64,000 bases of DNA. Origin: Vermamoeba vermiformis (lineage: Eukaryota). Made by a program: the position numbers and the translations under genes. The first letter of the stretch is position 1. Every line of letters begins with the position of its first letter. Below are positions 1,907 to 54,565 of the stretch, in pieces. The stretch spans positions 496,001-560,000 of the forward strand of contig JBEWZL010000239.1 of assembly GCA_045837725.1 (NCBI GenBank), in the 5' to 3' direction. The notes under the pieces were generated by a model. It ran no database searches and was not told the origin of the DNA. It saw only the letters and a list, made by a program, of their open reading frames with translations.

Positions 1907-2647
1907 TTACAACAAGGCAGCAATGACAGCCGATACAATTACAGCAATACCACTAACAACTGCGTTCGCCGATGAAGCAATGGGTGTTTTGCCGCCGGCG
2001 GAAGGAGCGCCAACTTGGATGGCGACGTCACTGCATCCGTAGTATGGAGTGGCTTCATTGGACTTCCACAACCATTGAAAGACGCACTGTATATGCAAAG
2101 GTCAGTATTGTACCTTTCAACTGCAACAAACGAGATATCCGAGGCAGATCTGACATTTCATGTCATTACTTACAGCGCTGCAGGAGATTGTAGGTACAGT
2201 GAATGTGGTTGATTTAGCACCAGTGCCGGTGACATCAACAGGCTAATAATAAAGCGCAATTAGCACAAATGTGAACGGAAATTTCACCCTCAACTCGTAA
2301 CTTACACCAAACAGTCTTGTTTTGTTGAAATTAGCTTGAGTCTCGGTCACACCTTGTCCAATCTAATATTGTAATGCCATTAGTACCCACTAATTTGCTA
2401 AAATCAAACAACGTACGAGGTATCCGTAAACATTGCCGCCATGATTTGCGTGGATGTTCCAAGTCACGGTAGCTTTGCCGCCAGTAGCCCACGTGACAGT
2501 CGCTGCTGTCTTTGCTCCGCCACCACACACTGCAGTACGAGCGTTGTCGTTGCTGCCTGAGCGAGGCTTAGGTGATGTCAACAGTCCATGGGCATCGATG
2601 TAGACAGCCGCGCAGAGGATAACCAAGATGAAATAAGCCACGCGCAT
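1907..2647 (-). CDS. Secreted, probably GPI-anchored His-brace (LPMO-like) copper-binding protein, copy 1 (4 exons)
   Basis: Signal peptide ending IDA followed by HGLLTSPKPR...CGG...WNIHANHGG...CSACVFQWLW...PYYGCSDVAI, then a small-residue site (SSA) and a hydrophobic C-terminal tail. Confidence 0.75.
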
Positions 2648-3127
2648 TTGATGAATAATAGAGTGTTATATGTGGTGTTGATATGCAGTGATGAAATGTA
2701 AATTGGTTGCAGTGACAATTATGACATCAAGAGTTGTGTACTGACAGACCAGACCTCCGGAGTGTAAATCTACGTGTTGAAGATAGCCGTCAATTGTCAG
2801 AATAATAATCGACCGTGATTGGCCATATTAAAGTGCAACGAGTCTGTCAGTTGATTCGGGTCAAATCTTCCACGACACTGCAAAACTCCATAATATCCGT
2901 GTAGCAATGTAACAGAATTGAAAGCAATTCCAAATTTAATTCGATAAATTAACACTTCTGCTGTCATGCTTTGATCGATCTGCTTCATATTGGTTTGGTT
3001 TGGTTCACCTGCTTGAAATAGCGAGAGCTCGACATTGGAAATTTCATCTGAGCCCTTGGCTCTGAGGCTGGATTTGATTAGAAAATATTAAGGCGGTTCA
3101 TATAAAAGACTGTTTGCACCATTGTTC

Positions 3128-5869
3128 TTAATCATCAACGTTCAGGTCTATGAGATCCATCGTGCGTGGATTCAACTCACGCCACGTGTGAATGATAAGT
3201 CTAAAAGAAATATCCATTAGATTAAATGGCATATAGAAATATTACTATGAACTTACCGATCCAATAATAAGAGTTGCCAGTCCGAGACAGATCCGGAAAC
3301 ATGACTAGTTATTTGTGGCTCGGGAGTGCTGCGAAAATAGTTAATTATGACCAATATTGACCAAATAGATACTTACGCGTGGAATTGCAGATCTATATTA
3401 TGCAGTAAAGTCGTGTAAGCGTTCGAATGTGGATCTGATTCGATTTTTCTAAATTCCAGCCACTCTCTGCAAGCGTCCTTCTTGCGCTCCAAGCGGTATA
3501 ATAAAGCAACTTGATTATATTTCGCTTCGACGTTATCTGTTGAAAGGTCAGATCTGGCGCTGAAATTGAACTTTGAATTAAAAGTTACCTGGTGCCATGA
3601 GTGAGGCCTTAGAAAACATCTTTAGGGCTTCCTCGTATCTTTGAAGACACTGTAGAATGATTCCTTTGTTAATGTAGACGTCGATCTGTATGAGTGTGTT
3701 AGATCTGAGTTATTATACATACGGTCTTTTCTCTGTCAAAGTTACTGTACCTTGAGAGATCTGCGCTTATCAGCATCGAAGAGAGCAGCATTGGAACCAT
3801 TTTGTTCAATACGATGCCCTCCGACCTCAAACCAATTATCCACGCGTTGTCTCTTTGTTGCTCGTTCTTCAACTTCTGCATCCACATCCGCCATTACACC
3901 GTGGTCGTGACGCGCAGAAATGGCGTTTAGGATGTCCAATACACTATCGAGACATTGAAGTGCTTCCGCAGGCCTCTCTTGGTTCAATAAAGCATCAGCT
4001 TTGTACATTAATATAGCTACATCGTGGCGCTCGATCTGCAGCACGTAATTGCACACTTTCAAGGCCTCGCGTATCTGATTCGTTTGTAATAATACGTAGA
4101 TATAGTCTCGGAATATTATAATACTCGATTCTGTTAGTCGTTGTTCCTAAATGAAAGTCAAGTTAGCCAAATTTAACTAGCCAGCTGCGTACTCCACCGG
4201 TCTTGATTAAATTGCTAATGAGCTGTTTGAAGGATAGATTGGCATCCGAACATTTGTCTTGAGCTACAAGCGACAAGCATATCTTGTAACGAATAGTTTC
4301 AGCGCTGAGCAGCTTCTTCAAAGATTGTTGTTCTTTATATAGCACTATACTGCTATTGTTCGTACTGTCTTCATTACTATTGGATTCTATTGCCTATATG
4401 CATTATATTTAATCATTCTATTCAAATTTCGAATTATCCTGAGATCCGCTTCGCTTACCTTCAATAAGAACTCCAGCATTCGATGCTCGGCATCTTTCTT
4501 ATTCAAAATAGCGTATATTACGGAGACATAGTACATCGCCAAGTAGTTATTCGCGTCTATCTTAATCGCCTCTTTAAATCTTTCAATAGCAGTCCAATAT
4601 TTTTTCTATGAACAGGCAATGGGGCTTAATATTCAATTCAATCATTAAATCCAAGTCAATTACCTGTAAAGCCAATATACATCCACAAAATACCAAGCAG
4701 TCAGCTGTTCGATGTTTGGATCTGTCGCGCAAACAAGCCTCAAAGCACGTGTTGCTAATTTCATATTCGCCGCGAGTAAAATGAATAACCCCTAATAAGA
4801 TGTTAATACTAGTATAGTAATACTGCTATGAATACCTTTTAAGAAGTACGCAGGCCAATAATGCTTGTCGAGCTTCAATAGCAGATCCAACGAAGCAGTT
4901 GCATTGGCGTAATCTTTTTTCTTATAGTTGATCAATCCTTCAAAGTAGATCAACACCATGGCACCTTCAATGACACTGCGGCTCTTTTCCTTCTTTTTAG
5001 TCTTCTTCTGCGTGACACTGTTCGCGTCAAATAAGCTCGAATTCAGCTCGTGTGCACGTGTTTCGGGATTAAATACAAATACACCTTGTGAGAGTTGCTT
5101 CAAAAATGTATCGTGAGCAGTGTCTACTTGTGTGCTATTATCGACTGCGTGATCTATAAGTCTGCGCACATGTTTTTGTTGAGAGATAAAGCTGATCAGT
5201 TTCAAGCATGACGAGTGGTCATTTTGCAAGATCCAAGCACACACGAGCACGTGCATTAGTTTCAATACGATAATGAGGTATCTACTTTCGGCTTCGATAT
5301 TCTCTTGTGTAAATACTAAGCTAATCAGCTGATTGTACACAGCTAGTGGATCTAATCCGTCTGCGCCGTGCAAGTCCACTAACATTTGTTCATAATCTCC
5401 ATCATCTTCGATATGATTCGCCAATGATTGGAGTTTTTTGAATAGGAATGCTCTTTTGAGCGCTGTATCAATTGCAGGAATGCTTTGAGCAGGCTGGTAA
5501 TTGAGTTGGATCAAACCGAGTGCGTGTCCAAGTACTAATTGCAACTCTACTGTCTCATTACTAACATCTTCTTCTATACGGAAGTTAATATACCACTCGT
5601 AATTCTTGGAAATGTACCTTCAACCGTGCGCAACAGCGTCTCAACACGAGTTCCGAGAGATCGAGCGTCTCTTGGGCCACTACATTCCTTTAAAAAATTA
5701 TTAAAATATTTTCTAATGTATATTTATACATCTTGGTTCATATAGTTACCTTAAAACGTTGAAATATTTCATTAAGGGCTGGCGCGAATTTTTCTAAAAT
5801 TATTTGAAAAGATAATAAATTCAACTATACAACATCAACTGCGTATATTAAAAATCTACCTAGTGACAT
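3128..5869 (-). CDS. Multi-exon TPR-repeat protein
   Basis: Repeated TPR-like helices (e.g. YFEGLINYKKKDYANATASLDLLLKLD; YINKGIILQCLQRYEEALKMFSKA; MYKADALLNQERPAEALQCLD). Start MSLEKFAPALNEIF and end inferred from splice phases. Confidence 0.65.
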
Positions 5870-6367
5870 ATCAGCTTTTGACTTGTCAATCCGGAGCAGA
5901 TCTCTTTTGTTTTCTCGCCGCCTGACAGAGGAACCTATCGTACCTCTTAGATAAAACAACAACTTATAAGCTCTGTTAACGCTTTGAGAACGAAAATACG
6001 ACAACTCTGGTCACGCACAATCAAACTTTTGAGCGCGAAATATACCAAAGAAATTGACACTCAAAATTACAATTGGTGACGCAAATGTTTATATGGTTAC
6101 CTTGTACTCTTCCGCTTCGACCAGGATGGATCCGTGCAAAGCAGCAATATTTTTCTCCAAAATTCGCAATCTAAGTAGTCCATACATCAGTACGCGAGTT
6201 AGAAGTCGCAGGTACAATGAATGACTTACTCCTTTTGGTACTTGGCTATTGCTCTGATCAATCGCGAAAAAAATGGATCAGCTTGTAGCACTGAAATTCC
6301 ACTAAGAGCCAAAAAGTGGCGCAGCTTAAACCTTAAGGTGGTATACTAACAATATGTTTTATCTAAT

Positions 6368-7234
6368 CTACAACAAAACTGCAATCAAAGCAAGTGAGAG
6401 CAAACCAACGTGGACGAAGCTCGTATAAGCAGATGAGCAACGGACCAAACCACCAAAGCAAGTGCCTGATGAATAAAGGTTAAATTTCGATGTCAAGATA
6501 ACAACGGAGGTGCATCATATTATTACCACTTGGAGTTTGAACAATGTTGCTTCCACCAGTGATCTTGACGTCGCTGCATCCATAGTAAGGTGTGGTTTCA
6601 CCACTTTGCCAGAACCATTGAATAGTGCACTAGAAAGTACATCATATTAGTACACTATTTACGGTAGTCATACAAGTTGACCGGGTTAAACCCCAGAATA
6701 GCATCAAATCCGGAAATTTTTTGAGTTAATTATGCTTACTGAGTCGCAGCTAACATCAGGGACGGTAAAAGTAGCACTTTGATCACCATCTTGGGCAGCA
6801 ACGGGCTGTTAATAAAGAAATCGAGCGTAAGTTTTTTGAAACAGAATTACACTCGAAATAACAAAGCTTTACTTACGCCGAAAAGCTTGTTCTTGTTGAA
6901 GTTGGCTTGGGTTTCGGTCGAATTGTCCATGATCTAATATAATAAAGCGGGTTACAAATGATTCGGTTCGTAAAAAGATTTGGATTTAACCAAAATTGCA
7001 ACTTACGATATAACCGTAGATATTGCCACCGTGATTAGCTGCAATATTCCATTTAATAGTTTGTTGAGACTTTGCTTCCCAGGTAGCAGTCAAAGTGGTC
7101 TTGGCGATACCACCACAAGCAGCGGTATGCACAGCGGCATCCGCACCAGTGCGTGCAGCAGGGCTTGTCAAGTGGCCGTGGGCTGCAACATATACAACCA
7201 AAGCGATAAAGCAAATTGCAGTTAATGAGCGCAT
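6368..7234 (-). CDS. Secreted, probably GPI-anchored His-brace (LPMO-like) protein, copy 2 (5 exons)
   Basis: MRSLTAICFIALVVYVAA|HGHLTSPAAR...CGG...WNIAANHGGNIYGY...CDSCTIQWFW...PYYGCSDVKI plus a hydrophobic tail. First three introns lie at the same positions as in copy 1. Confidence 0.75.
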
Positions 7235-11036: not shown

Positions 11037-13065
11037 TTAACATCGAATCGACTGATCAATTAATATGACATTGACAACGCTATTAGCGGGTACAGGTACT
11101 GTAAAACTAACGGCAGTGTCGGACTCTCGTGTGAGAGGCAGCGATTGAGGCACTAGCTCTGAGGCTTGTTTGAGCTGGTCGACTTGTTTGGGCCGCAAGT
11201 ACGTAGGTTTGCCCATTGATACCCACAATGGATAAGCATTGGCGTGAGTATCGTCGATCAAGTACATCACTGCTTGTGTGCTACTACTAACTCCTATAAA
11301 AGTTACGTATATTAGTGTGGGTGTTGTATCAGTTGACTGATTGCAACATAAAGGTTGTCAAATATGTGACGTGCCTTCAACGTAGACTTGAGCGACTTGA
11401 TCAGTAGGAGGCTTCTTTTTGATGTTCCAATTCGTAAAGAATATCGACGTATTGTTGCCAGTCACTGCAAATGCGCTCAAAGTGTCGTAAGCTAAGAAAT
11501 CAGGATTGACTTGCACGAGGGTGTCACCAGCCCAGTGCATCAGTTGGAAGGCTCTGTAACTTGGCTTGGGAATGCCGTACACATTTTGAAGTCCGGCTAC
11601 CGGCAGGAAACCATTGGCAAATGGATCTGGGTACAGACCTGACAAAACAATCGAATCAAAATAAGAATGCATTATATAAGAAGGATGAATCTCGTACCTT
11701 GTTCTTCAAACAGGTCGTTAAAAGGCCACCAAGACAGCGCATCCACAACGTTGTTTCCGCGAAAGGCTTGGAAGACAGCAAAAGCAGCAGCGTAGCTAGT
11801 ATCGTCATTGTAGCCGTCATCATATTCAGTATAATACAACGGAGTTTTAGGGCCTACAGTCTGACGAGTCTTGCGCAACACATCGCCGAAGAAACTTCTT
11901 GTTTCAGGACCTGGCGGATCTGTTGGGTACTCGTGCGTTGAAACAAAGTCGTATGAGACGTTATTTGTTCTACAGTATTCCAAGAACTCAGGGATCCACG
12001 CAGACATGGCTAAGTAACAAAATAAGGGGTCTGAAGGACAAGTTTTAAATCGCGTGCGTGGATCGTACCTGTTACTGGGCCTCCAATACGTATTCTTGGG
12101 TCTACAGATTTAGCAGCGCGAGAGGTTACTTCAAAGAGCTTAAAGTAATCGGTCTGGCCCAGAGTTAGTTGCATTTGGATTCCAATCCAAAAGTCGTTAC
12201 AAAAAAAGAGATTACTTTACCTGACTTCCAGTCCAAAAGTCATGCGGACAGCAATTAGGTTCATTCCATACTTCAAAGTTCCATGTCAGAATTTCTTCTA
12301 GGCCGTAGCGATCAATCAAATGTTGCATGAACGCGACAATCAGATCTGTCCAATCACTCCATTTCTTGGGTGGAGTAACATTGGCTCGATAGTGGCTCCA
12401 TGTTTGGGTGCCTGATGCCATTAAACTCGGCATAAAACCGATTTCAACGAACGGGCGCATCCCGATCCGCAGCAGAAAATCAAAAATACGATCGATATTG
12501 AAGAACGAGAACAAATATCCGTCATTTCCTATAGTATGTATTATATTAATGACATTTCAGCCATTATTTACGCTTACCATTCTCGGCGGGCAATACGACG
12601 GACATGTCATCCACAAATAGGCCATGAAATCTTACTTGTTTGAATCCAATGTCTTTGTGCGTTTGTAGCATTTGTTCCTGCCAATCAGCGCGCAGGGCTA
12701 GAGCTGCGTGACCACTGCCAACACACTCTTCAAAATAATGCGTCCAAGATCCAGTCACATTGTTAGCGTTGATCGTAAATTTTTTTGTTGACTGAGAATA
12801 GGTGCAATTGAATATCGTGAACAACAACAGAACATTGGTGAGTATATAGAGTCCTACAGAAATTAAAAAATTAAATAAATCACCGAAGATCTGTCTCAAA
12901 ATGACACTTCAACACAACTAATCAAATCTCTGATGTCATAATTTTATAAATGCGATTACCACATCCAAAAGAAAGCTAATTCTTAAATTTGTTTTAAGCA
13001 CGTCTTTCTGTTTTCGCTCTAGACTTATTATTAGGGGGTGTTACAGCTAAATACTTACCTTTCAT
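11037..13065 (-). CDS. Secreted glycoside hydrolase family 39 (beta-xylosidase/alpha-L-iduronidase-like)
   Basis: Signal peptide MKGLYILTNVLLLF...; VRFHGLF; WNFEVWNEPN (acid/base Glu); DFVSTHEY; LYYTEY (nucleophile Glu); GIPKPSYRAF. Confidence 0.88.
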
Positions 13066-27194: not shown

Positions 27195-28752
27195 ATGGCG
27201 GATTTGTCCTTGATCGAGGATTTACTTCACGACGCTGCTGACTCCCAGTATAAGAGGCTTAAAGACGGGAAAATACTCTCTTTGGCACTTGCAAGTCAAT
27301 TTTTTAAGGATGGCGTCATTACGCTGTCCGGAGTTTCTTATCTGTTCGAGAAACACGTGTTGCGATCCATTCCAGATGGTAAGCAGCGCTTAAAATATAT
27401 ATAATTTATATACTGACACGGACGCAGGTAAGCTCATTAACCTACTCCAAACTCCAGAACTTGAACGAGTCTGTAAGCTTTGTACTCGGGCTGGATCTCG
27501 CGCGGTTGTTCCTTCTGAAGCACTTGCTGCAATTATTGCTGCTAAAGTCACGCACAAAGAGCTTCCTCGAGTCACAAATGGCACGGACATTGAAAGCTAC
27601 AGCAACAAATACAACAATGCCAATTTGAACGAGTCAGATCGGATCGCACGCGTGTTCAACGACGAATTGACGTGCGTAGTATGCATGGACACATTAGAAG
27701 ATGCTGTGGAGAGCAGCTGCTGCAAAACAATGTGCTGTTTGAAGTGCTCAGACAAATGTCCTAGCTGTCCTATTTGTCGCAAACAAAGCATCAAGTGGAC
27801 GGCAAACGAGCCTATTCGCCGCATTGTCGGCAAGAAACCAGCAAAGTGCCCGCACAAAGATTGCTCGCAGTGGTCAACAGCAGCTGAAATCAACGTTCAC
27901 AAAGAGAAGTGCGAGCATAGAATTGTGAGCTGTACGAACAGAGGATGCAACGAGAGGATGAAATATTTAGACCTCAAGACACATACTACAATGAAGTGCA
28001 AGTTCAGATTCGAGACGTGCGATGTGTGCAAGATTCAGATGCCGCATGGTGTTAATCACAATCCACGCAGATGCATCTGGAACTGTGGCCAAATACTGTG
28101 TAACACTACAGCCAAAGATCACAATGACACGTGCACTTACCGCCCTGTGCGATGTAAGAACCGTGATTGCCGCGAAGAAGTGCAAAAACGATTGCTTCAA
28201 GATCACTTGCAGAACACCTGTCCGTACCGGGTAGTTCAGTGCCCCAACAACAAGTGCACAGTTCGAATGTTCGCGTGCACAATCTCAAAACACACTGACA
28301 TTTGTCCTGAAGCACGAGTGAACTGCAGATATTGCAATATACCGTGCTACAGAAAGAACTTAGACAGGCACGAGGGCAGTTGCAGAAAAAGGCCAGTGTA
28401 CCAATGCGATCACTGTTCAGAATGGTATTGGGAAGGCGACAACCATCCCAATGTTTGCCCCGAGCGCTACGTCAATTGCTCACACTTCAAATGCCCGCAG
28501 ACAGTGAAAGCTAAAAACCTCGCCCACCATGAGGAGCTGTGTCACTTCCGCAAGGTCAGCTGCACAAACCGAGGATGTGACAAAGTTGTCTTCTTACACC
28601 AACTTCATGTCCACGAAACCCAACAATGTCCGCACCGTTACATTGAATGCGACAACTGTGGCAAAGAGATGCGTGCGTGGAAAATGAAGGGTCATCGTTG
28701 TTACGACAGTTCGTCCGATAGTAGCTCCAATAGCTCTAACAGCTACTACTAA
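27195..28752 (+). CDS. LOTUS/OST-HTH-like + RING + tandem TRAF-type zinc-finger protein (paralog 1)
   Basis: ELTCVVCMDTLEDAVESSCCKTMCCLKC...CPICR RING, then many C-x4-C...H-x3-C TRAF fingers; one intron in the N-terminal domain. Confidence 0.8.
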
Positions 28753-29099
28753 GGATATAGCGACCAACTCGGAGTTGACAACCGTTTGTGAAACCGTGTA
28801 AAATAAACTTCTTACTTCAAAGAAATTCCTTTGACTTTTAAGTGAAACAACACAGAGCAAGCAATAACGTTGAGGTCCTTTCGTATTTTTTTCAACAATT
28901 TATTGATACACACTCGAGCAAAGTAAGTGAAGGACTAATGAGCCCTCTTAAATAAATTAATTGTTCCGATCCAACAAGATCCAAATTATTTGCCCTTCTT
29001 TCAGGTTAAAAATTCGGCTGTCAAGAATTTTAGTATATATTGATTACCCTGATGTTATTTCTATATTGATATAAATTAATAAAATACTGCAAACAGGAA

Positions 29100-31539
29100 A
29101 TGGATTTTATGGACAAGTTTAATAGCCTATCTAGAGATATGGCGAAAAAAATGTACATCGTGCATAGCTCTGGTAAGCCAGACGACGAAGCGCAATTGTT
29201 TGAATTACTCCAGCACTGCTTCATGACCCAAAATATGGTTAAGATCAGACTCAGCGAGATCCCGTCACTGTTTGAAAGAATGTATTCCAGACCTCTTTCT
29301 GCCAAACGTAAGTGCACGAATGATTTTAAGTTTTTCTAATCCATGCAGTAAATCTCGTTGACTTGCTTCGATCCCCGAACCTTAGCATTATTTGTGTCGT
29401 CAAACAAATGAATCAGCTCATATGGATTGAACCTACACCAGAATTTGCAGAGATGAATAAGAAGGTTCAAGAAATGCGTCGATTGTACGTCGAACCTGTC
29501 TTAAGAAAAGAAGCCGAAGAGCAGCGCCGTCAATTTGAAGCCCAAACTGCTCAGTTCAATGATTCGGAGTCAGATGAAGAAACAGACGGCTATTTACAGG
29601 ACGCGCCGTTAGAACACACGCCGCACTACAAGATGTTTGTGGTTGAGTTCAGCGAGACCTTACAACGGATCTTCCAAGACATTGACTTTGGCATTGAGGA
29701 CCACACGGACTTGTTGTGGCTCTACCTCATTCACTTGTTCACTATTTCCAAGAAGAAGTACAGAGTTTCAGTGAGCGAACTGCCCGAGCTGTTCCGCGAG
29801 TATTACGGCCACACTCTCGAATTGTCAAGTAAGTCCTCGGCAAAAATATCGAACTCTCGCTAATAACGCGGCTAGAAAAATTGATCGCGACGTTGCAAGA
29901 AGACTGCTACCTCGTGTGTCAAACTGAAAAATTCAAAAATGATTGGCACGTCAAACCGTCGGAAGAATTGGTTCATTTTCTAAATTCGTACACCGGAGAA
30001 GAGTTGCAGGAAATTATTTCATATAATCTCGAGGCACTGCAGGAACGATACCAGGACTGTAGACCCGATGACGATTTTCCAGCCTATGAAGTCGAGCCAC
30101 CTGTGCAGAAGCCAGTCACGCAACAAACCAAACAAAACACAAATGATAAGACCAAAGCACAGTCAAACAATGCTAATTCATCACGAAGTGGACAGAAATC
30201 CAACGAGCCAATCTTAAGAAGTGGTTTCTTATTGGCACAACCTTCGAATAACAATACGAGCAAATCTAGCAGCACTCAAAAACACCAAAATAACAATGCT
30301 AAATCGACTTCACAATCCAATCAACGACAAACACCTCCAACGCAACCCAATGTTAACACAGTACCAGCCTCTCCGCTCGTCTTGAATGGCACGGATATTG
30401 GCACTTATGGCGCCAAAGGACGTGAGCTAGCAATGAAAGAACATCTCGAGAAGGAACAAAAGAAAGCTGAACAGGCTGCTGCCAACAACAAACAAGCGAG
30501 TCAAGCACAGTCAAAGCCAGCTCAACAGACACCGCCTCGCAGTCAACAAAACAATCGTAGTCCCTCGAGTGAGAGAAGTAATAAGGCCTCATCAAAAGCG
30601 CGCAACAATAAGAGCCCTGGTCAATATGTCAAGAAGACAGAAGTAGCGAACAATACCAACACCAATTCAACACCAAGTCCTGAACCTAGTGCTCAGCCCA
30701 CAACTATAACCTCTACTAGCACTAGTTCTTTGATCCCGAAAAACGACGTTCAAAAGCCCGCACCCGTTAAGCCTTTATCTGAAGCGGAACAATTAGCCGA
30801 CACAGTAAAGAACGAGTTCAGTTGCAATATGTGCAATCAGATCCTCCGCCGTCCAGTAGAAAGCACGTGTTGCCACAAGCTCGTCTGTTACGTCTGCTCG
30901 TTGTTCAATGGTCTGTGCCCGCTGTGCAAAAAGCCCGGACAACGTGTCACGTGGGTCGAGAATCACGTGGTCAATCATTTGATGAATCGACTGACAATGC
31001 CATGTCCGTACAAGCAATGTGACGAGTGGGTCCCTCTCAACGACATATTCTTGCACAAAGACCACTGCGAACACAAGCCGCAGCCTTGTCCTAACAAAGC
31101 ATGTGGTGCCAGCAAACACTACTCGGAACTTGACGCGCACATTGACACGTGTCCCTTCACTGTCATTACCTGCGCGTGCAAACAACAAATCAAGCGACGA
31201 GATTTGGAGAAGCATTTAGCCACGTGCAAGAAGAAACAAGGCACCGGTCAACAGAATTCTGCACCTGCTCAACAGAAGCAACAAGAGAAGCGCTCTAATC
31301 AAGTCAAATGTCCTTATGGCTGCGACGCACAAATAGAACAAAGTGCACTCGAGGCACATGGCAATCAGCTCGTTAATTGCACCAATTACGGCTGTCCCGC
31401 AGTGCTCAAACATAGTGACCTGAATGTGCATCGAAACGCGTGTGCGTACAGACGAGTGCCATGTACTAATGGCTGTGGATGGCAAGATGCAGTAAAGGAC
31501 CTGAATAAGCACCAAGCTAACTGCAAAAATAGAAAATAA
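29100..31539 (+). CDS. Two LOTUS/OST-HTH-like domains + Q/N/S-rich linker + RING + TRAF zinc fingers (paralog 2)
   Basis: IRLSEIPSLFERMYSRPL and VSVSELPELFREYYGHTLEL repeats; EFSCNMCNQILRRPVESTCCHKLVCYVC...CPLCK; TRAF fingers. Confidence 0.8.
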
Positions 31540-31640
31540 ATTCTCAGAATTCGTTCTGCAGAACGAGTTCTCCTTTTTTTAGAACATTAGTACTTGCATG
31601 TCAACCACATTAGGTGACAAACTATTGATCTAGAATTTTA

Positions 31641-33418
31641 ATGTCTTGGCCAAGAAACGGTAAGCCAAAGGACAGCACGCTGATGCAGCTGCGCAGCCTT
31701 TAAAATTTTCTCTATAATATATTGATTTAATGATTTATTAAATAAATAAGTTATAATATCAAAATCTATTTGTCCAAGGTTCGATTAATGGAAATTAAAG
31801 AAAATTAAATTTGGATCTGATCCCTGAATTTCATTTTTAGAAACCAACGAAGAAAAAGAGCTCAGGTTCGTTCCGTACACGATAATCGATGGAGCTGCGG
31901 AACTAGCCATTGATATGCAAAGAGATTGCAACAGAATGGATCATTTCTTGCCACTGTACTTTGTCGTTCTTGAGGAGCTATGTAGCAGACAAGGAAGCGA
32001 TATAGACTTGTCCGAGATCCCCAAACTATTTGAAGAAAAATATGGCTACAAGCTGCAGTTAGATTGTGAGTTAGAAAATTTCGTTCTTTTTCCGAATCCA
32101 ACTAATTTTCCGTTTAGCCAAACTCTGCCATGTTCTGCGGCAAGGTGCATTCCACAAAATATGCAGTCTAAACTCTCACGGTCCTCCTCGCAAGATCTCT
32201 CCATCGCCAACGTTCTTCCGTATCGTTCGTCTTCAGTACCAACAGGAGGACGTTATTATCAAGAGACTAAATGAAGCCGAACAAAGAGTCAAAGCTGCCG
32301 ATGAAAAGGTAGTATTGTTAACAAAGTCGTTAGAAGCACGACCTGAAGACAAACTGACCAAAATGTTGAGCGACGAGTTGACGTGTGTCGTTTGTTTGGA
32401 CACGCTGAACGAGGCCGTGGAAAGTGAGTGCTGCAAAACATTGTGCTGCCAAACCTGCTCGACAAGCCTACCCGTGTGCCCTATTTGTCGACAAAAAGAC
32501 GCGCACTGGCGCGGGAATGAAGCCATCCGAAGGTTGGTCGGCAAAATACCTGTCAAATGTGACACCAAAGAGTGCACCGCGTGGTCTACCAGAGCAGAGA
32601 TCAAACTACACAAAGACCACTGTGAATACGTCGAGATTAAATGCTCCAACAAAGAGTGCACGTTCACTGCCAAACGCAAGGACTTCAAACCACACATTGA
32701 CACGTGTCAACACGCCATGGTCAACTGCACGCACTGCCACCAACAGATAATGAAGAAGAACGTCGCGCCTCACGAGTCCATGTGTGCAGAGCGAACCATA
32801 CGGTGCACAGTGTTTGGCTGCAGTGTCACGGTGAAGGCGAAAGACATGCCACAACATCACGAGGTCTGTGACTTTGTTGCACTCAGATGCACGAACGACG
32901 GCTGCACCTTCACGGTACAACGTCAGAACATGAAGGATCATCTGTCCAAGTGCCCAGAAGGCGTACTCAAGTGTACCTATTGCACTTACAAGTTCAAGCG
33001 CAAAACCGTCCATTCCCACGAGCGCGGCTGTTCGGTGAACTACGTCCAGTGTTGGTGCGGCGATTACATCAGAAAGCGCGATATTAGAGCCCACAGAGAT
33101 CACTGTCCTCAGGCTCCTATTGCGTGCAGAAACGATAGATGTCCAGAACGCATCATACCTCGTCATATGGACACTCACGTGAACAATCAATGTGACTGGA
33201 CTTACATGCCGTGTCGTTGGAACGATTGCCCAGATCAGTTCACGCGCAAGTTCATTCAACAACACGAAAGTAACTGTTGGTACCGCGATGTCTCGTGTCG
33301 TCATTGTGGCTTGGAGACCTCGCGCAATGCACTCGACGACCACTTGAGAGCGTGCAAACGACGACGAAGATACTCACCTTATTTACCTCAATGTGCTCCA
33401 TGCGCATCCATGTATTAA
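31641..33418 (+). CDS. LOTUS/OST-HTH-like + RING + TRAF zinc fingers (paralog 3)
   Basis: MSWPRN first exon; IDLSEIPKLFEEKYGYKLQLD; ELTCVVCLDTLNEAVESECCKTLCCQTC...CPICR; long TRAF-finger array. Confidence 0.8.
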
Positions 33419-53939: not shown

Positions 53940-54565
53940 CTTTCAGACAATAAGGCCGTCGTCAGTTCCGCTCGCCTCGTTTTCATTCCTCTAACCACTT
54001 CATAACTCTCGACCACAAGAGGCACCCTCATCCGCCACGCCATGACGTAACGGTTGTCGATCTTGTTGTCCTCTCGCACGGCGGCGTTCGCTGCATCCTT
54101 GTGCTTGGTAAGCTCACTTTTCCTTTCAATACCTTTCTATAATTCCGAAATTTTGGTTTGGATGATGTTCAAATGCATAGTTCAACTGAATTACCAAGCG
54201 TGATTATCATTTCTTTCGCTCCTATCTGACCAATCCAAAATTTTAAAAAAATTCTAAAAATCCCTTCTTACATATCAGCAAGCCTCTTACTAATGTATGT
54301 TTATTTCTTGAAGGAATCGTATTTTTACGATGCTACCACATGAGCACCCGAGTCAAATCCCGTGAGGTAAATATCTTCTTATGAAACCCTATTGCACCCA
54401 AGCCTTGTGCCGATAATCCTCACATTTTCGGTCACACCGTTCAAGGTGCATATATTCTCTTATTTATTTCCATTTAATTTTGCAACCGCTGATCGTTCTT
54501 GCAGATCCAGCTTTGCCTGATCAAACGACTCTTGTGCAGTTATCTGAAGCTTTTCCAATAAACAG
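53940..54565 (+). ncRNA. Putative spliced non-coding snoRNA host transcript (5' end approximate)
   Basis: Plus-strand donors near 54107 (GTAAGC) and 54367 (GTAAAT), acceptors near 54313 and 54504, AATAAA at 54557-54562; only tiny ORFs in the exons. Confidence 0.6.
54157..54234 (+). ncRNA. Box C/D snoRNA, snR60/U80(SNORD80)-like, dual guide for LSU rRNA
   Basis: Box C ATGATGT 54162, D' CTGA 54186, C' GTGATTA 54200, D CTGA 54226, terminal stem ttttggtttgg/ccaatccaaaa. Guides GCATAGTTCA and TCTTTCGCTCCTAT are complementary to the conserved LSU rRNA segments UGAACUAUGC and AUAGG(G)GCGAAAGA. Confidence 0.88.

What the first reader, a model, noticed from the sequence alone, without database searches (positions are those of the whole stretch)
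1907..7234. Pair of miniature, surface-anchored His-brace (LPMO-like) proteins
Seen: two paralogs (1907-2647 and 6368-7234) with shared intron positions. Each has His as the first residue after a signal peptide (HGxLTSPxxR), a second His in ANHGG (residue ~50), a CxxC-xxQW strand, YYGCSDV, and a GPI-like tail. Established: His1, a second His and a (F/Y)xxCxD motif are the copper-site layout of lytic polysaccharide monooxygenases (AA10/AA11/AA15/AA16). Inference: the mature domain is only ~123 aa by my count, well below typical LPMOs. It may be an unclassified minimal LPMO family or a copper chaperone analogous to X325/Bim1, acting on prey cell walls or the organism's own cyst wall.
Basis: partly seen in the sequence, partly recalled or inferred. 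Interest (0 to 1): 0.8.

Follow-up and report, generated by a model that had tools for sequence, protein, structure and literature searches.

The report
Two small anchored LPMO-like copper proteins
Two nearby genes of an unidentified eukaryote encode very small, probably membrane-tethered copper-binding proteins of the polysaccharide-monooxygenase (LPMO) superfamily, from a widespread branch for which I found no biochemical study.

Summary
Two minus-strand genes (CDS 2647-1907, 178 aa; 7234-6368, 183 aa) are 51% identical paralogs. They share three phase-0 intron positions, and full-length database proteins 81% and 79% identical confirm the splicing.

Each protein has a signal peptide that should leave His as residue 1, followed by a ~123-aa domain and a hydrophobic C-terminal end. 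A family profile aligns His1, the ANHGG His and the first Tyr of YYGCSD with His1, His91 and Tyr184 of the active AA15 LPMO of Thermobia (E 2e-19). The AlphaFold2 model (pLDDT 89) matches LPMO structures. Its highest TM-score is to the GPI-anchored copper protein LaX325.

The family is not unclassified. The orthologs pass Pfam LPMO_10. One also passes BIM1-like. Bacterial relatives are NCBIfam's "SCE4755 family polysaccharide monooxygenase-like protein". Small size is a family trait (median domain 127 aa). Ten literature searches found no experimental study of this branch.

Sequence alone cannot tell whether the proteins cleave polysaccharide (my lean, about 0.4) or handle copper as Bim1 does (about 0.33). 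I rate it a new member of a known kind, of moderate interest.

The parts
1907..2647 (-). Gene A: CDS with stop, 4 exons (2647-2417, 2362-2306, 2242-2174, 2086-1907), 178 aa
   Evidence: Splice model. P0001 is 81% identical over the full length with no gap at the junctions. A profile built from 34 bacterial relatives scores the spliced protein 91.4 bits.
2591..2647 (-). Gene A signal peptide, codons 1-19, ending ...IDA
   Evidence: Hydrophobic N-terminus. The -1/-3 pattern is conserved across the family. No predictor was run.
2588..2590 (-). Gene A His20, which becomes His1 of the mature protein (proposed copper ligand)
   Evidence: CAT codon read. This column aligns with His1 of 5msz. His occupies it in 125 of 127 sequences.
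2441..2443 (-). Gene A His69, mature His50, in ANHGG (proposed second copper ligand). Ala67 lies two residues before it.
   Evidence: Aligns with His91 of 5msz, and the Ala with Ala89. His occupies this column in 125 of 134 sequences.
2042..2044 (-). Gene A Tyr134, the first Tyr of YYGCSDV (proposed axial residue)
   Evidence: Aligns with Tyr184 of 5msz. This column is Y in 121, W in 9 and F in 5 of 136 sequences.
1910..1969 (-). Gene A C-terminal hydrophobic end (residues 159-178), preceded by small residues ASSAN: a GPI-signal-like tail
   Evidence: Hydropathy. The protein ends inside the hydrophobic stretch with no charged tail. No GPI predictor was run.
6368..7234 (-). Gene B: CDS with stop, 5 exons (7234-7007, 6933-6877, 6805-6740, 6629-6527, 6465-6368), 183 aa
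   Evidence: Splice model. P0002 is 79% identical over 183 columns. The bacterial profile scores it 90.6 bits.
7178..7180 (-). Gene B His19, which becomes His1 of the mature protein after ...VAA
   Evidence: CAC codon read, at the same alignment column as gene A's His.
7031..7033 (-). Gene B His68, mature His50, in ANHGG
   Evidence: Read and aligned.
6585..6587 (-). Gene B Tyr132, the first Tyr of YYGCSDV
6371..6465 (-). Gene B last exon: a Cys-x-GGL-x-x-Cys-SSA motif followed by the hydrophobic end (GPI-signal-like)
   Evidence: The same motif occurs in P0002, P0005, P0130 and P0139.

Best explanation
Both genes encode single-domain proteins of the LPMO superfamily that enter the secretory pathway. 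They belong to a compact branch: about 123 aa, a beta-sandwich with the long L2 surface loop cut down to about 25 residues, and two disulfide-type Cys pairs.

Shown: the gene models, the paralogy, homology to LPMO_10, BIM1-like and the SCE4755 family, the LPMO-type fold of a confident model, and the positional match of His1, His50 and Tyr115 (mature numbering) with the copper site of TdAA15A.

Inferred: signal peptidase cuts before the His, so its free amino group and side chain, together with His50, hold one copper ion (a histidine brace) over the axial Tyr. The C-terminal hydrophobic end is exchanged for a GPI anchor. The copper site would then sit on the outer face of the plasma membrane and, after endocytosis, on the luminal face of endocytic or phagocytic membranes.

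My commitment for the last step, which is the weakest: the reduced copper activates O2 or H2O2 and oxidises a beta-1,4-type polysaccharide that touches the membrane. That could be a wall of ingested or contacted cells, or the cell's own wall material. This would be a tethered minimal LPMO.

I put about 0.85 on 'surface-tethered His-brace copper protein' and about 0.4 on the LPMO-type catalytic step.
For: Gene models and paralogy.

Pfam on the orthologs: LPMO_10 scores 32.9 bits for P0001 and 34 bits for P0002, against a cut-off of 23.

Family profile against PDB sequences: A1 holds 136 of the 151 proteins I had. The 15 shorter than 130 aa or longer than 450 aa were left out. Its best hits are 5msz AA15 at 2e-19, 7p3u AA11 at 2.2e-16, 9exj AA11 at 6.7e-13 and 7ze9 at 6.1e-12.

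Copper site: in the 5msz alignment the family's His, A-x-H and Y-x-x-C-x-D fall on His1, Ala89/His91 and Tyr184. Passages of PMC5823890 that I read describe these as the copper site of an active enzyme. The TdAA15A strand C-T-N-C-V-L-Q-W matches the CxxC-xxQW strand here.

Conservation: the H/H/Y triad is present in 114 of 136 sequences. C41 and C137 occur together in 132 of 136. C117 and C120 are both present in 118, both absent in 15 and split in 3. Gln123 is present in 100 of 136.

Structure: the AF2 model of P0001 has pLDDT 89, with blocks over residues 21-140 at 95-98. Foldseek gave 20 matches at E<=1e-3, and those listed are all LPMO-family entries: AA15, AA10, AA13, AA11, an 'AA16 LPMO-like protein' and AA9.

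Anchoring recurs in relatives. Of 136 sequences, 23 end in a hydrophobic stretch and 59 more have a hydrophobic segment after the domain. MYXO-CTERM models hit 6 of 136.

Bacterial relatives found in genomes are mostly from predatory lineages (69 loci). That scan was seeded with Bdellovibrio-like sequences, so the taxon spread is biased.
Against: Nothing here tests copper binding or catalysis.

The LPMO_10 match covers only profile positions 82-183 of 183. The N-terminal half, which builds most of the substrate-binding face in known LPMOs, is largely missing.

No carbohydrate-binding module appears among the 20 Pfam families seen on the 136 relatives.

The most similar solved proteins in size and TM-score are LaX325 (150-153 aa; TMq 0.58-0.59, TMt 0.67). 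Their family is GPI-anchored and has shown no polysaccharide cleavage (passages of PMC7924993, PMC10952591 and PMC9695133).

BIM1-like matches 82 of 136 relatives at E<=1e-3, and P0002 scores above its cut-off.

The AA15 hallmark of ten conserved Cys is absent: the domain has four.

Cleavage before His and the GPI anchor are inferred, not predicted by a dedicated tool. The His-His distance in the model could not be measured.
Confidence: 0.4

Rival explanations
1. Bim1/X325-like copper handling. The tethered His-brace domain captures copper at the cell surface and passes it to a membrane importer, or buffers it, without cleaving any polysaccharide.
For: PF20238 BIM1-like covers nearly the whole domain: P0001 residues 19-148 against profile 2-127 of 140, 24.5 bits; P0002 at 32 bits, cut-off 27. 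It matches 82 of 136 relatives.

The best TM-scores are to LaX325. Domain size and a GPI-type tail match the X325 description. No CBM is seen in the family.

Bim1 works with the importer Ctr1 under copper limitation (passage of PMC7924993).
Against: Sequence and Foldseek E-values favour true LPMOs over X325. 6ibh and 6ibi appear only at E 1e-3, and no X325 chain is among the 37 PDB sequence hits of the family profile at E<=1.

In the review table I read, X325/Bim1 is listed for fungi only.

The X325 hallmark is an Asp as fourth copper ligand. I could not map it onto these proteins.

No copper-transporter domain was found in the window ORFs I scanned, although only ORFs of 75 aa or more were scanned.
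Confidence: 0.33
2. A redox protein that is not an LPMO. It could be a surface copper oxidase that makes or senses H2O2, as reported for AA16 'oxidoreductases', or an electron-transfer protein.
For: 7ze9, deposited as 'an AA16 LPMO-like protein', is a sequence hit at 6.1e-12 and a Foldseek hit at 8.2e-4. The listing abstract of PMC10088020 calls AA16 members oxidoreductases that boost AA9 LPMOs (listing only, paper not read). The review PMC10952591 lists electron transfer as an open possible role for X325.
Against: No partner or substrate is indicated by anything in the window. This option is a fall-back and has no positive evidence of its own.
Confidence: 0.15
3. A non-copper role: an adhesion or wall-binding protein that only keeps the fold.
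For: Six of 136 relatives have Asp and Trp in place of the second His and the Tyr. The fold therefore tolerates loss of the brace.
Against: Both window proteins and both orthologs keep all three copper-site residues, and the triad is kept in 114 of 136 relatives.
Confidence: 0.07

Closest known systems
AA15 LPMOs (TdAA15A of Thermobia domestica, PDB 5msz)
   Same: It is the best sequence hit (2e-19) and the best Foldseek hit by E-value (4.8e-6). His1, Ala-x-His and the axial Tyr in Y-x-x-C-x-D are shared. So is the CxxC-x-L-Q-W strand, and the H-G-x-L-x-x-P-x-x-R start.
   Different: TdAA15A spans 193 residues over the stretch that this family covers with 120 profile positions. It has five disulfides and ten conserved Cys, against four Cys here. 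It is a secreted digestive enzyme with measured activity on cellulose and chitin, while these proteins are tethered and untested.
X325 / Bim1 LPMO-like copper proteins (LaX325, PDB 6ibh/6ibi; Pfam PF20238)
   Same: A small LPMO-fold domain (150-153-aa chains), the highest TM-scores (0.58-0.59 / 0.67), and a GPI-type C-terminus. The Pfam BIM1-like match runs over the whole domain and is above cut-off for the gene-B ortholog.
   Different: The gene-A ortholog is below the cut-off (24.5 against 27). X325 is described from fungi and has an Asp as fourth copper ligand; I could not establish that residue here. The family profile finds no X325 chain in the PDB at E<=1.
NCBIfam NF043005, 'SCE4755 family polysaccharide monooxygenase-like protein' (bacteria)
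   Same: Same domain from end to end. It is matched by 123 of 136 relatives. My profile of 34 bacterial members scores the spliced window proteins 91.4 and 90.6 bits. The Atlas cluster of that name shares 209 of 256 features. Cell-surface sorting tails are common there too.
   Different: P0001 scores 36 bits against the model's cut-off of 75. The eukaryotic proteins are therefore relatives rather than members of that equivalog. They read ANHGG and QW-x-W where the bacterial proteins read NHPG and Q-L/M-I-Q, and they lack the bacterial partner gene.
AA10 LPMOs, including the smallest chain among my PDB hits, 5aa7 (142 aa)
   Same: Pfam LPMO_10 membership, fold hits (5wsz, 4a02, 2bem and others) and the F/Y-x-x-C-x-D-V end.
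   Different: Only the C-terminal half of the LPMO_10 profile is matched. The domain is about 19 residues shorter than 5aa7. The axial residue is Tyr. In the one AA10 chain I saw aligned (7zjb) it is Phe, and PMC5823890 says most chitin-active AA10s have Phe.

Membership tests
LPMO superfamily (Pfam PF03067 LPMO_10, covering AA10/AA15-type proteins) | Profile match above the curated cut-off | tested here: met
   P0001 (81% identical to gene A) scores 32.9 bits and P0002 (79% identical to gene B) 34 bits, cut-off 23, on profile positions 82-183 of 183 only. The window's spliced proteins could not be given to the Pfam tool. Exon 1 alone gives no LPMO_10 hit.
LPMO superfamily | His as the first residue of the mature protein | tested here: inconclusive
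   A hydrophobic N-terminus is followed by A-x-A-like -3/-1 residues and then His. That column is His in 125 of 127 relatives. No signal-peptide predictor and no protein data were available.
LPMO superfamily | Second His and an axial Tyr/Phe at the copper site | tested here: met
   Alignment to 5msz puts them on His91 and Tyr184 (residues confirmed in PMC5823890).
LPMO superfamily | LPMO-type beta-sandwich fold | tested here: met
   AF2 pLDDT is 89. There are 20 Foldseek PDB hits at E<=1e-3, and those listed are all LPMO-family entries.
LPMO superfamily | Copper-dependent oxidative cleavage of a polysaccharide | not testable with these tools
   Needs recombinant protein and product analysis.
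CAZy AA15 | Ten conserved Cys forming five disulfides | tested here: not met
   The domain has four Cys: C41, C117, C120 and C137 in P0001 numbering. PMC5823890 reports ten Cys and five disulfides.
CAZy AA families (any) | Assignment by the CAZy/dbCAN family models | not tested
   No dbCAN or CAZy library is among the tools.
X325 / BIM1-like (Pfam PF20238) | Profile match above the curated cut-off (27 bits) | tested here: inconclusive
   P0002 scores 32.0 bits (met) and P0001 24.5 bits (not met). Window exon 1 alone scores 17.3 bits for A and 15.1 bits for B.
X325 / BIM1-like | Protein Asp as the fourth equatorial copper ligand | not testable with these tools
   The feature is taken from PMC10952591. 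Attempts to align an X325 chain failed, and the primary papers are not held.
X325 / BIM1-like | GPI anchor | tested here: inconclusive
   The C-terminus ends in a 16-20-residue hydrophobic stretch preceded by small residues (SSA). No GPI predictor was available.
NCBIfam NF043005 (SCE4755 family) | Score above the model cut-off (75 bits) | tested here: not met
   P0001 scores 36 bits, E 6.2e-9, over residues 14-140 against profile 3-145 of 146. Homology is clear but equivalog membership is not.

The most novel reading that the evidence does not exclude
The compact SCE4755-like branch is a minimal, membrane-tethered LPMO. Cells that live by attacking other cells, both predatory bacteria and phagotrophic protists, would use it to oxidise the wall glycans of their prey at the contact site or inside the phagosome, where copper and H2O2 are at hand. 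The window's two GPI-type paralogs would be the eukaryotic version of that tool.
Probability: 0.15. Interest if true: 0.85.

Novelty: new member of a known kind. Interest (0 to 1): 0.5.

Why it matters
LPMO research is moving from biomass enzymes to biological roles such as development, virulence and copper supply. This branch sits between the true enzymes (AA15, AA10) and the non-enzymatic copper proteins (X325/Bim1).

The branch has about the smallest domain of the fold, is usually tethered to the cell surface, and is widespread: 197 cluster representatives at E<=1e-3. My ten literature searches found no experimental paper on it.

A 123-residue His-brace domain would be a convenient minimal model for copper-oxygen chemistry. 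Its activity, or lack of it, would show which parts of the LPMO scaffold are needed for catalysis. For the organism itself, these proteins are candidates for feeding, wall remodelling or copper uptake.

Tried and rejected
Pfam on single exons gave only weak BIM1-like hits (17.3 and 15.1 bits). This shows that the spliced protein, or an ortholog, is needed.

phmmer of P0001 alone against PDB sequences gave nothing below E 0.26. The family profile was needed.

The search for homologous proteins with P0001 returned only P0001 itself. With the 21-sequence alignment A2 it gave 20 proteins, almost all unnamed. Taxon and source names of the close relatives therefore stayed unknown.

I tried to place the X325 Asp ligand through P0113, which turned out to be AA11-type (7p3u at 2.8e-22). 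I also tried P0109, a true BIM1-like protein at 57 bits, which had no X325 hit. Both attempts failed. The Labourel 2020 and Garcia-Santamarina 2020 papers are not held.

I repeated it with the 8-sequence A4.

For the bacterial partner gene there was no Pfam or NCBIfam family, no Atlas lead and no Foldseek PDB match at E<=1e-3. A complex-prediction job on the L007 pair returned 'no answer'. I draw nothing from it.

Literature searches that found nothing on this family: SCE4755 (0 papers); LPMO with Amoebozoa (13 papers); a five-term new-family search (0); LPMO with Dictyostelium (14); BIM1-like (13); a mis-set myxobacteria search; LPMO with Myxococc (34); and histidine brace with AlphaFold and LPMO-like (10). 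These were judged from titles and abstracts only.

I rejected the idea of a functional gene cluster in the window. The neighbours are ordinary housekeeping genes.

I did not build a tree, because almost none of the relatives carries a taxon label.

Full report
**1. What is in the sequence**

The window is eukaryotic DNA of about 42% G+C with short GT..AG introns. On the minus strand, gene A reads as four exons: 2647-2417, 2362-2306, 2242-2174 and 2086-1907, 178 codons in all. Gene B reads as five exons: 7234-7007, 6933-6877, 6805-6740, 6629-6527 and 6465-6368, 183 codons in all.

The two proteins are 51% identical (87 of 172 columns, E 3e-56), and tblastn finds no third copy in the window. Three introns lie at identical alignment positions in phase 0. 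Gene B has one more intron in its tail.

The splice models are confirmed by database proteins. P0001 (177 aa, source EukProt, Trinity-style name) is 81% identical to A over the full length, without gaps at the junctions. P0002 (182 aa) is 79% identical to B over 183 columns with one gap, and covers B's fourth junction. Because joined sequences may not be typed into tools, these two orthologs stood in for A and B wherever a full-length protein was needed. Scripts worked on the spliced proteins directly.

**2. The motifs**

- a hydrophobic N-terminus ending ...IDA (A) or ...VAA (B), followed by H-G-x-L-T-S-P-x-x-R;
- a second His in ANHGG at mature position 50;
- CSACVFQW (A) or CDSCTIQW (B);
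- YYGCSDV;
- a C-terminus that ends inside a 16-20-residue hydrophobic stretch preceded by small residues (hydropathy).

From His1 to the end of the last strand the domain is 123 residues.

**3. The family**

An exhaustive phmmer search with P0001 found 197 cluster representatives at E<=1e-3, of which 20 were at <=1e-10 and 2 at <=1e-30. I aligned 136 of the 151 proteins then held, leaving out 15 shorter than 130 aa or longer than 450 aa.

The set is not pure. Its tail contains AA11-type proteins, such as P0113, which hits 7p3u at 2.8e-22. It also contains a true BIM1-like protein, P0109, at 57 bits.

Column conservation, in P0001 numbering:

| Residue | Conserved in |
|---|---|
| His20 | 125 of 127 |
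| Arg29 | 121 of 131 |
| Cys41 | 134 of 134 |
| Trp63 | 121 of 136 |
| His69 | 125 of 134 |
| Cys117 | 119 of 135 |
| Cys120 | 120 of 136 |
| Gln123 | 100 of 136 |
| Tyr134 | 121 of 136 |
| Cys137 | 134 of 135 |
| Asp139 | 121 of 134 |

The residue before the His is A, G or S in 124 of 127 sequences. The one at -3 is A, V or S in 115 of 127. This is the pattern of a signal-peptidase site.

The His/His/Tyr triad is complete in 114 of 136 sequences. The two Cys pairs co-occur: C41 with C137 in 132 of 136, and C117 with C120 both present in 118, both absent in 15 and split in 3.

Domain length in this set has a median of 127 aa, with a range of 113-209 over 123 sequences. The small size is therefore a trait of the family and is not peculiar to these two genes.

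**4. Which known families it touches**

- **Pfam.** P0001 scores 32.9 bits on LPMO_10 (cut-off 23), but only on profile positions 82-183 of 183. It scores 24.5 bits on BIM1-like (cut-off 27) over nearly the whole domain. P0002 scores 34 bits on LPMO_10 and 32 bits on BIM1-like, both above cut-off. Across the 136 relatives at E<=1e-3, LPMO_10 matches 98 and BIM1-like 82.
- **NCBIfam.** NF043005, 'SCE4755 family polysaccharide monooxygenase-like protein', matches 123 of 136, with a best E of 1.4e-49. P0001 scores 36 bits against a cut-off of 75.
- **Local profile.** A profile I built from 34 bacterial members scores the window's own spliced proteins 91.4 bits (A) and 90.6 bits (B) over the whole domain.
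- **ESM Atlas.** The nearest clusters are an LPMO_10 cluster (Mollusca), the SCE4755 cluster (Bdellovibrionota; 209 of 256 shared features) and a BIM1-like cluster (Ascomycota), at scores of 0.83-0.84. These are leads only.

**5. The copper site**

The family profile hits PDB sequences of true LPMOs: 5msz (TdAA15A) at 2e-19, 7p3u (AA11) at 2.2e-16, 9exj (AA11) at 6.7e-13 and 7ze9 at 6.1e-12.

In the printed 5msz alignment the family His falls on His1. The A-x-H falls on Ala89 and His91. The first Tyr of Y-Y-x-C-x-D falls on Tyr184. Sabbadin et al. 2018 (PMC5823890, passages read) describe exactly these residues as the histidine brace, the axial Tyr and the AA10-like Ala of an enzyme active on cellulose and chitin. 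TdAA15A also has the C-T-N-C-V-L-Q-W strand.

The same paper reports ten conserved Cys and five disulfides for AA15. The domain here has four Cys. 5msz also needs 193 residues for what this family does in 120 profile positions.

**6. Structure**

AlphaFold2 on P0001 with the 136-row alignment gave a mean pLDDT of 89 and pTM of 0.79. Ten-residue blocks from residues 21 to 140 score 95-98, and the model is a beta-sandwich of eight strands.

Foldseek against the PDB gave 20 matches at E<=1e-3. The listed ones are AA15 (4.8e-6), several AA10s, AA13, AA11, an 'AA16 LPMO-like protein' and AA9.

LaX325 follows at E 1e-3 but has the highest TM-scores (TMq 0.58-0.59, TMt 0.67). TMq is depressed because 54 of the 177 query residues are signal peptide and tail.

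The tools do not expose coordinates.

**7. Tethering**

Both proteins end in a hydrophobic stretch with no charged tail. That is what a GPI signal looks like (inference; no predictor available).

Relatives are tethered in several ways. Of 136, 23 have a hydrophobic extreme C-terminus and 59 more have a hydrophobic segment after the domain. Some have a transmembrane helix with a cytosolic tail (alignment). Bacterial members carry MYXO-CTERM-type sorting signals (6 of 136; one protein is so named by JGI).

Gene-B-type relatives share a Cys-x-GGL-x-x-Cys-SSA motif just before the tail.

**8. Context**

In the window the neighbours are ordinary: ribosomal protein S13/S15, a TPR protein between the two genes, GH39-like exons, heme oxygenase, a USP9X-like gene, Spo11, TRAF-type zinc-finger genes, beclin, HIRA, histone H2A and thioredoxin. 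No copper-transporter domain was seen, but only ORFs of 75 aa or more were scanned.

In bacteria, a genome scan seeded with eight Bdellovibrio-like sequences gave 69 loci. Most are from Bdellovibrionota or Oligoflexia-type MAGs and a few from Myxococcota. The seeding biases this spread.

In 43 of the 63 loci with at least 600 nt of upstream DNA, the gene directly upstream on the same strand is one conserved Cys-rich lipoprotein-like protein of no known family or fold. It has no counterpart in the window, so it says nothing direct about the eukaryotic genes.

**9. What the proteins do**

Well supported: a secretory-pathway, single-domain LPMO-superfamily protein that keeps all three copper-site residues.

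Inferred: His1 after cleavage, one Cu in a histidine brace, and a GPI anchor placing the site on the cell surface and in endocytic compartments.

Open: whether the copper centre cleaves polysaccharide.

For catalysis:
- the closest sequence relatives with solved structures are active enzymes;
- the site residues, including the Ala and the Gln-bearing strand, are of the AA15/AA10 type.

Against catalysis:
- the region that forms most of the binding face in known LPMOs is reduced to about 25 residues;
- none of the 136 relatives carries a carbohydrate-binding module among the 20 Pfam families seen;
- the only solved proteins of this size and anchoring, X325/Bim1, bind copper but show no cleavage and act in copper supply (PMC7924993, PMC10952591, PMC9695133 and PMC10166503, passages read).

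The feature that would separate the two readings is a protein Asp on the fourth copper position. I could not map it.

I lean slightly to a tethered LPMO-type oxidase (0.4) over Bim1-like copper handling (0.33).

**10. Novelty**

The fold, the site and even the family are catalogued (Pfam, NCBIfam). The eukaryotic GPI-type members and the branch as a whole appear untested. None of my ten searches found a paper on them. These searches cover only the held open-access library and were judged from listings. Supplements were not consulted.

Verdict: a new member of a known kind, of moderate interest.

Noticed in passing
Loci L001-L069 (e.g. L007:5500-5997 upstream of L007:6001-6699; L027:5330-5992): In Bdellovibrionota-type relatives, a conserved gene sits directly upstream of the LPMO-like gene on the same strand, often abutting it. 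It is found in 43 of 63 loci with enough upstream DNA. It encodes a lipoprotein-like protein of 155-197 aa with 7 invariant Cys. It has no Pfam or NCBIfam family, a confident AF2 model (pLDDT 88.7) and no PDB fold match at E<=1e-3. It could be a redox or copper partner, or an inhibitor. It is absent from the Myxococcota loci and from the window.
   Followed up: partly
window 6371-6465 (-), and relatives P0002, P0005, P0130, P0139: Gene-B-type proteins share a short Cys-x-GGL-x-x-Cys-SSA motif immediately before the C-terminal hydrophobic end. This looks like a small disulfide loop at the presumed GPI attachment site. Gene A lacks it.
   Followed up: no
Relatives P0096, P0101, P0115, P0117, P0131, P0145 (not in the window): Six of the 136 relatives keep His1 but have Asp for the second His and Trp for the axial Tyr (I did not print which six). 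Separately, I noticed by eye in the printed sequences that the six proteins named here read G-D-G at the second-His motif. Four of them (P0101, P0115, P0131, P0145) carry a weak Fz-domain match after the LPMO-like domain. This may be a divergent sub-branch with an altered metal site.
   Followed up: no
window 11040-12908 (-): Four ORF pieces match Pfam Glyco_hydro_39 in order along the profile, the best at 7.9e-38. This is a split GH39-like glycosidase gene about 4 kb from gene B. Nothing links it to the LPMO-like genes.
   Followed up: no
window 27394-33415 (+): Three neighbouring ORFs carry TRAF-type zinc fingers, and two of the three also have a RING finger. They look like a small tandem family.
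   Followed up: no
window 54153-54238 (+): A C/D-box snoRNA of the snR60/Z15 family, 55.1 bits against a gathering score of 41. No tRNA gene is present in the window.
   Followed up: no
window 3100-6250 (-): The gene between the two paralogs is intron-rich with TPR repeats (TPR_19, 6.3e-7, for 3745-4146). Its largest ORF (4795-5619) has no Pfam match. I did not identify it further.
   Followed up: no
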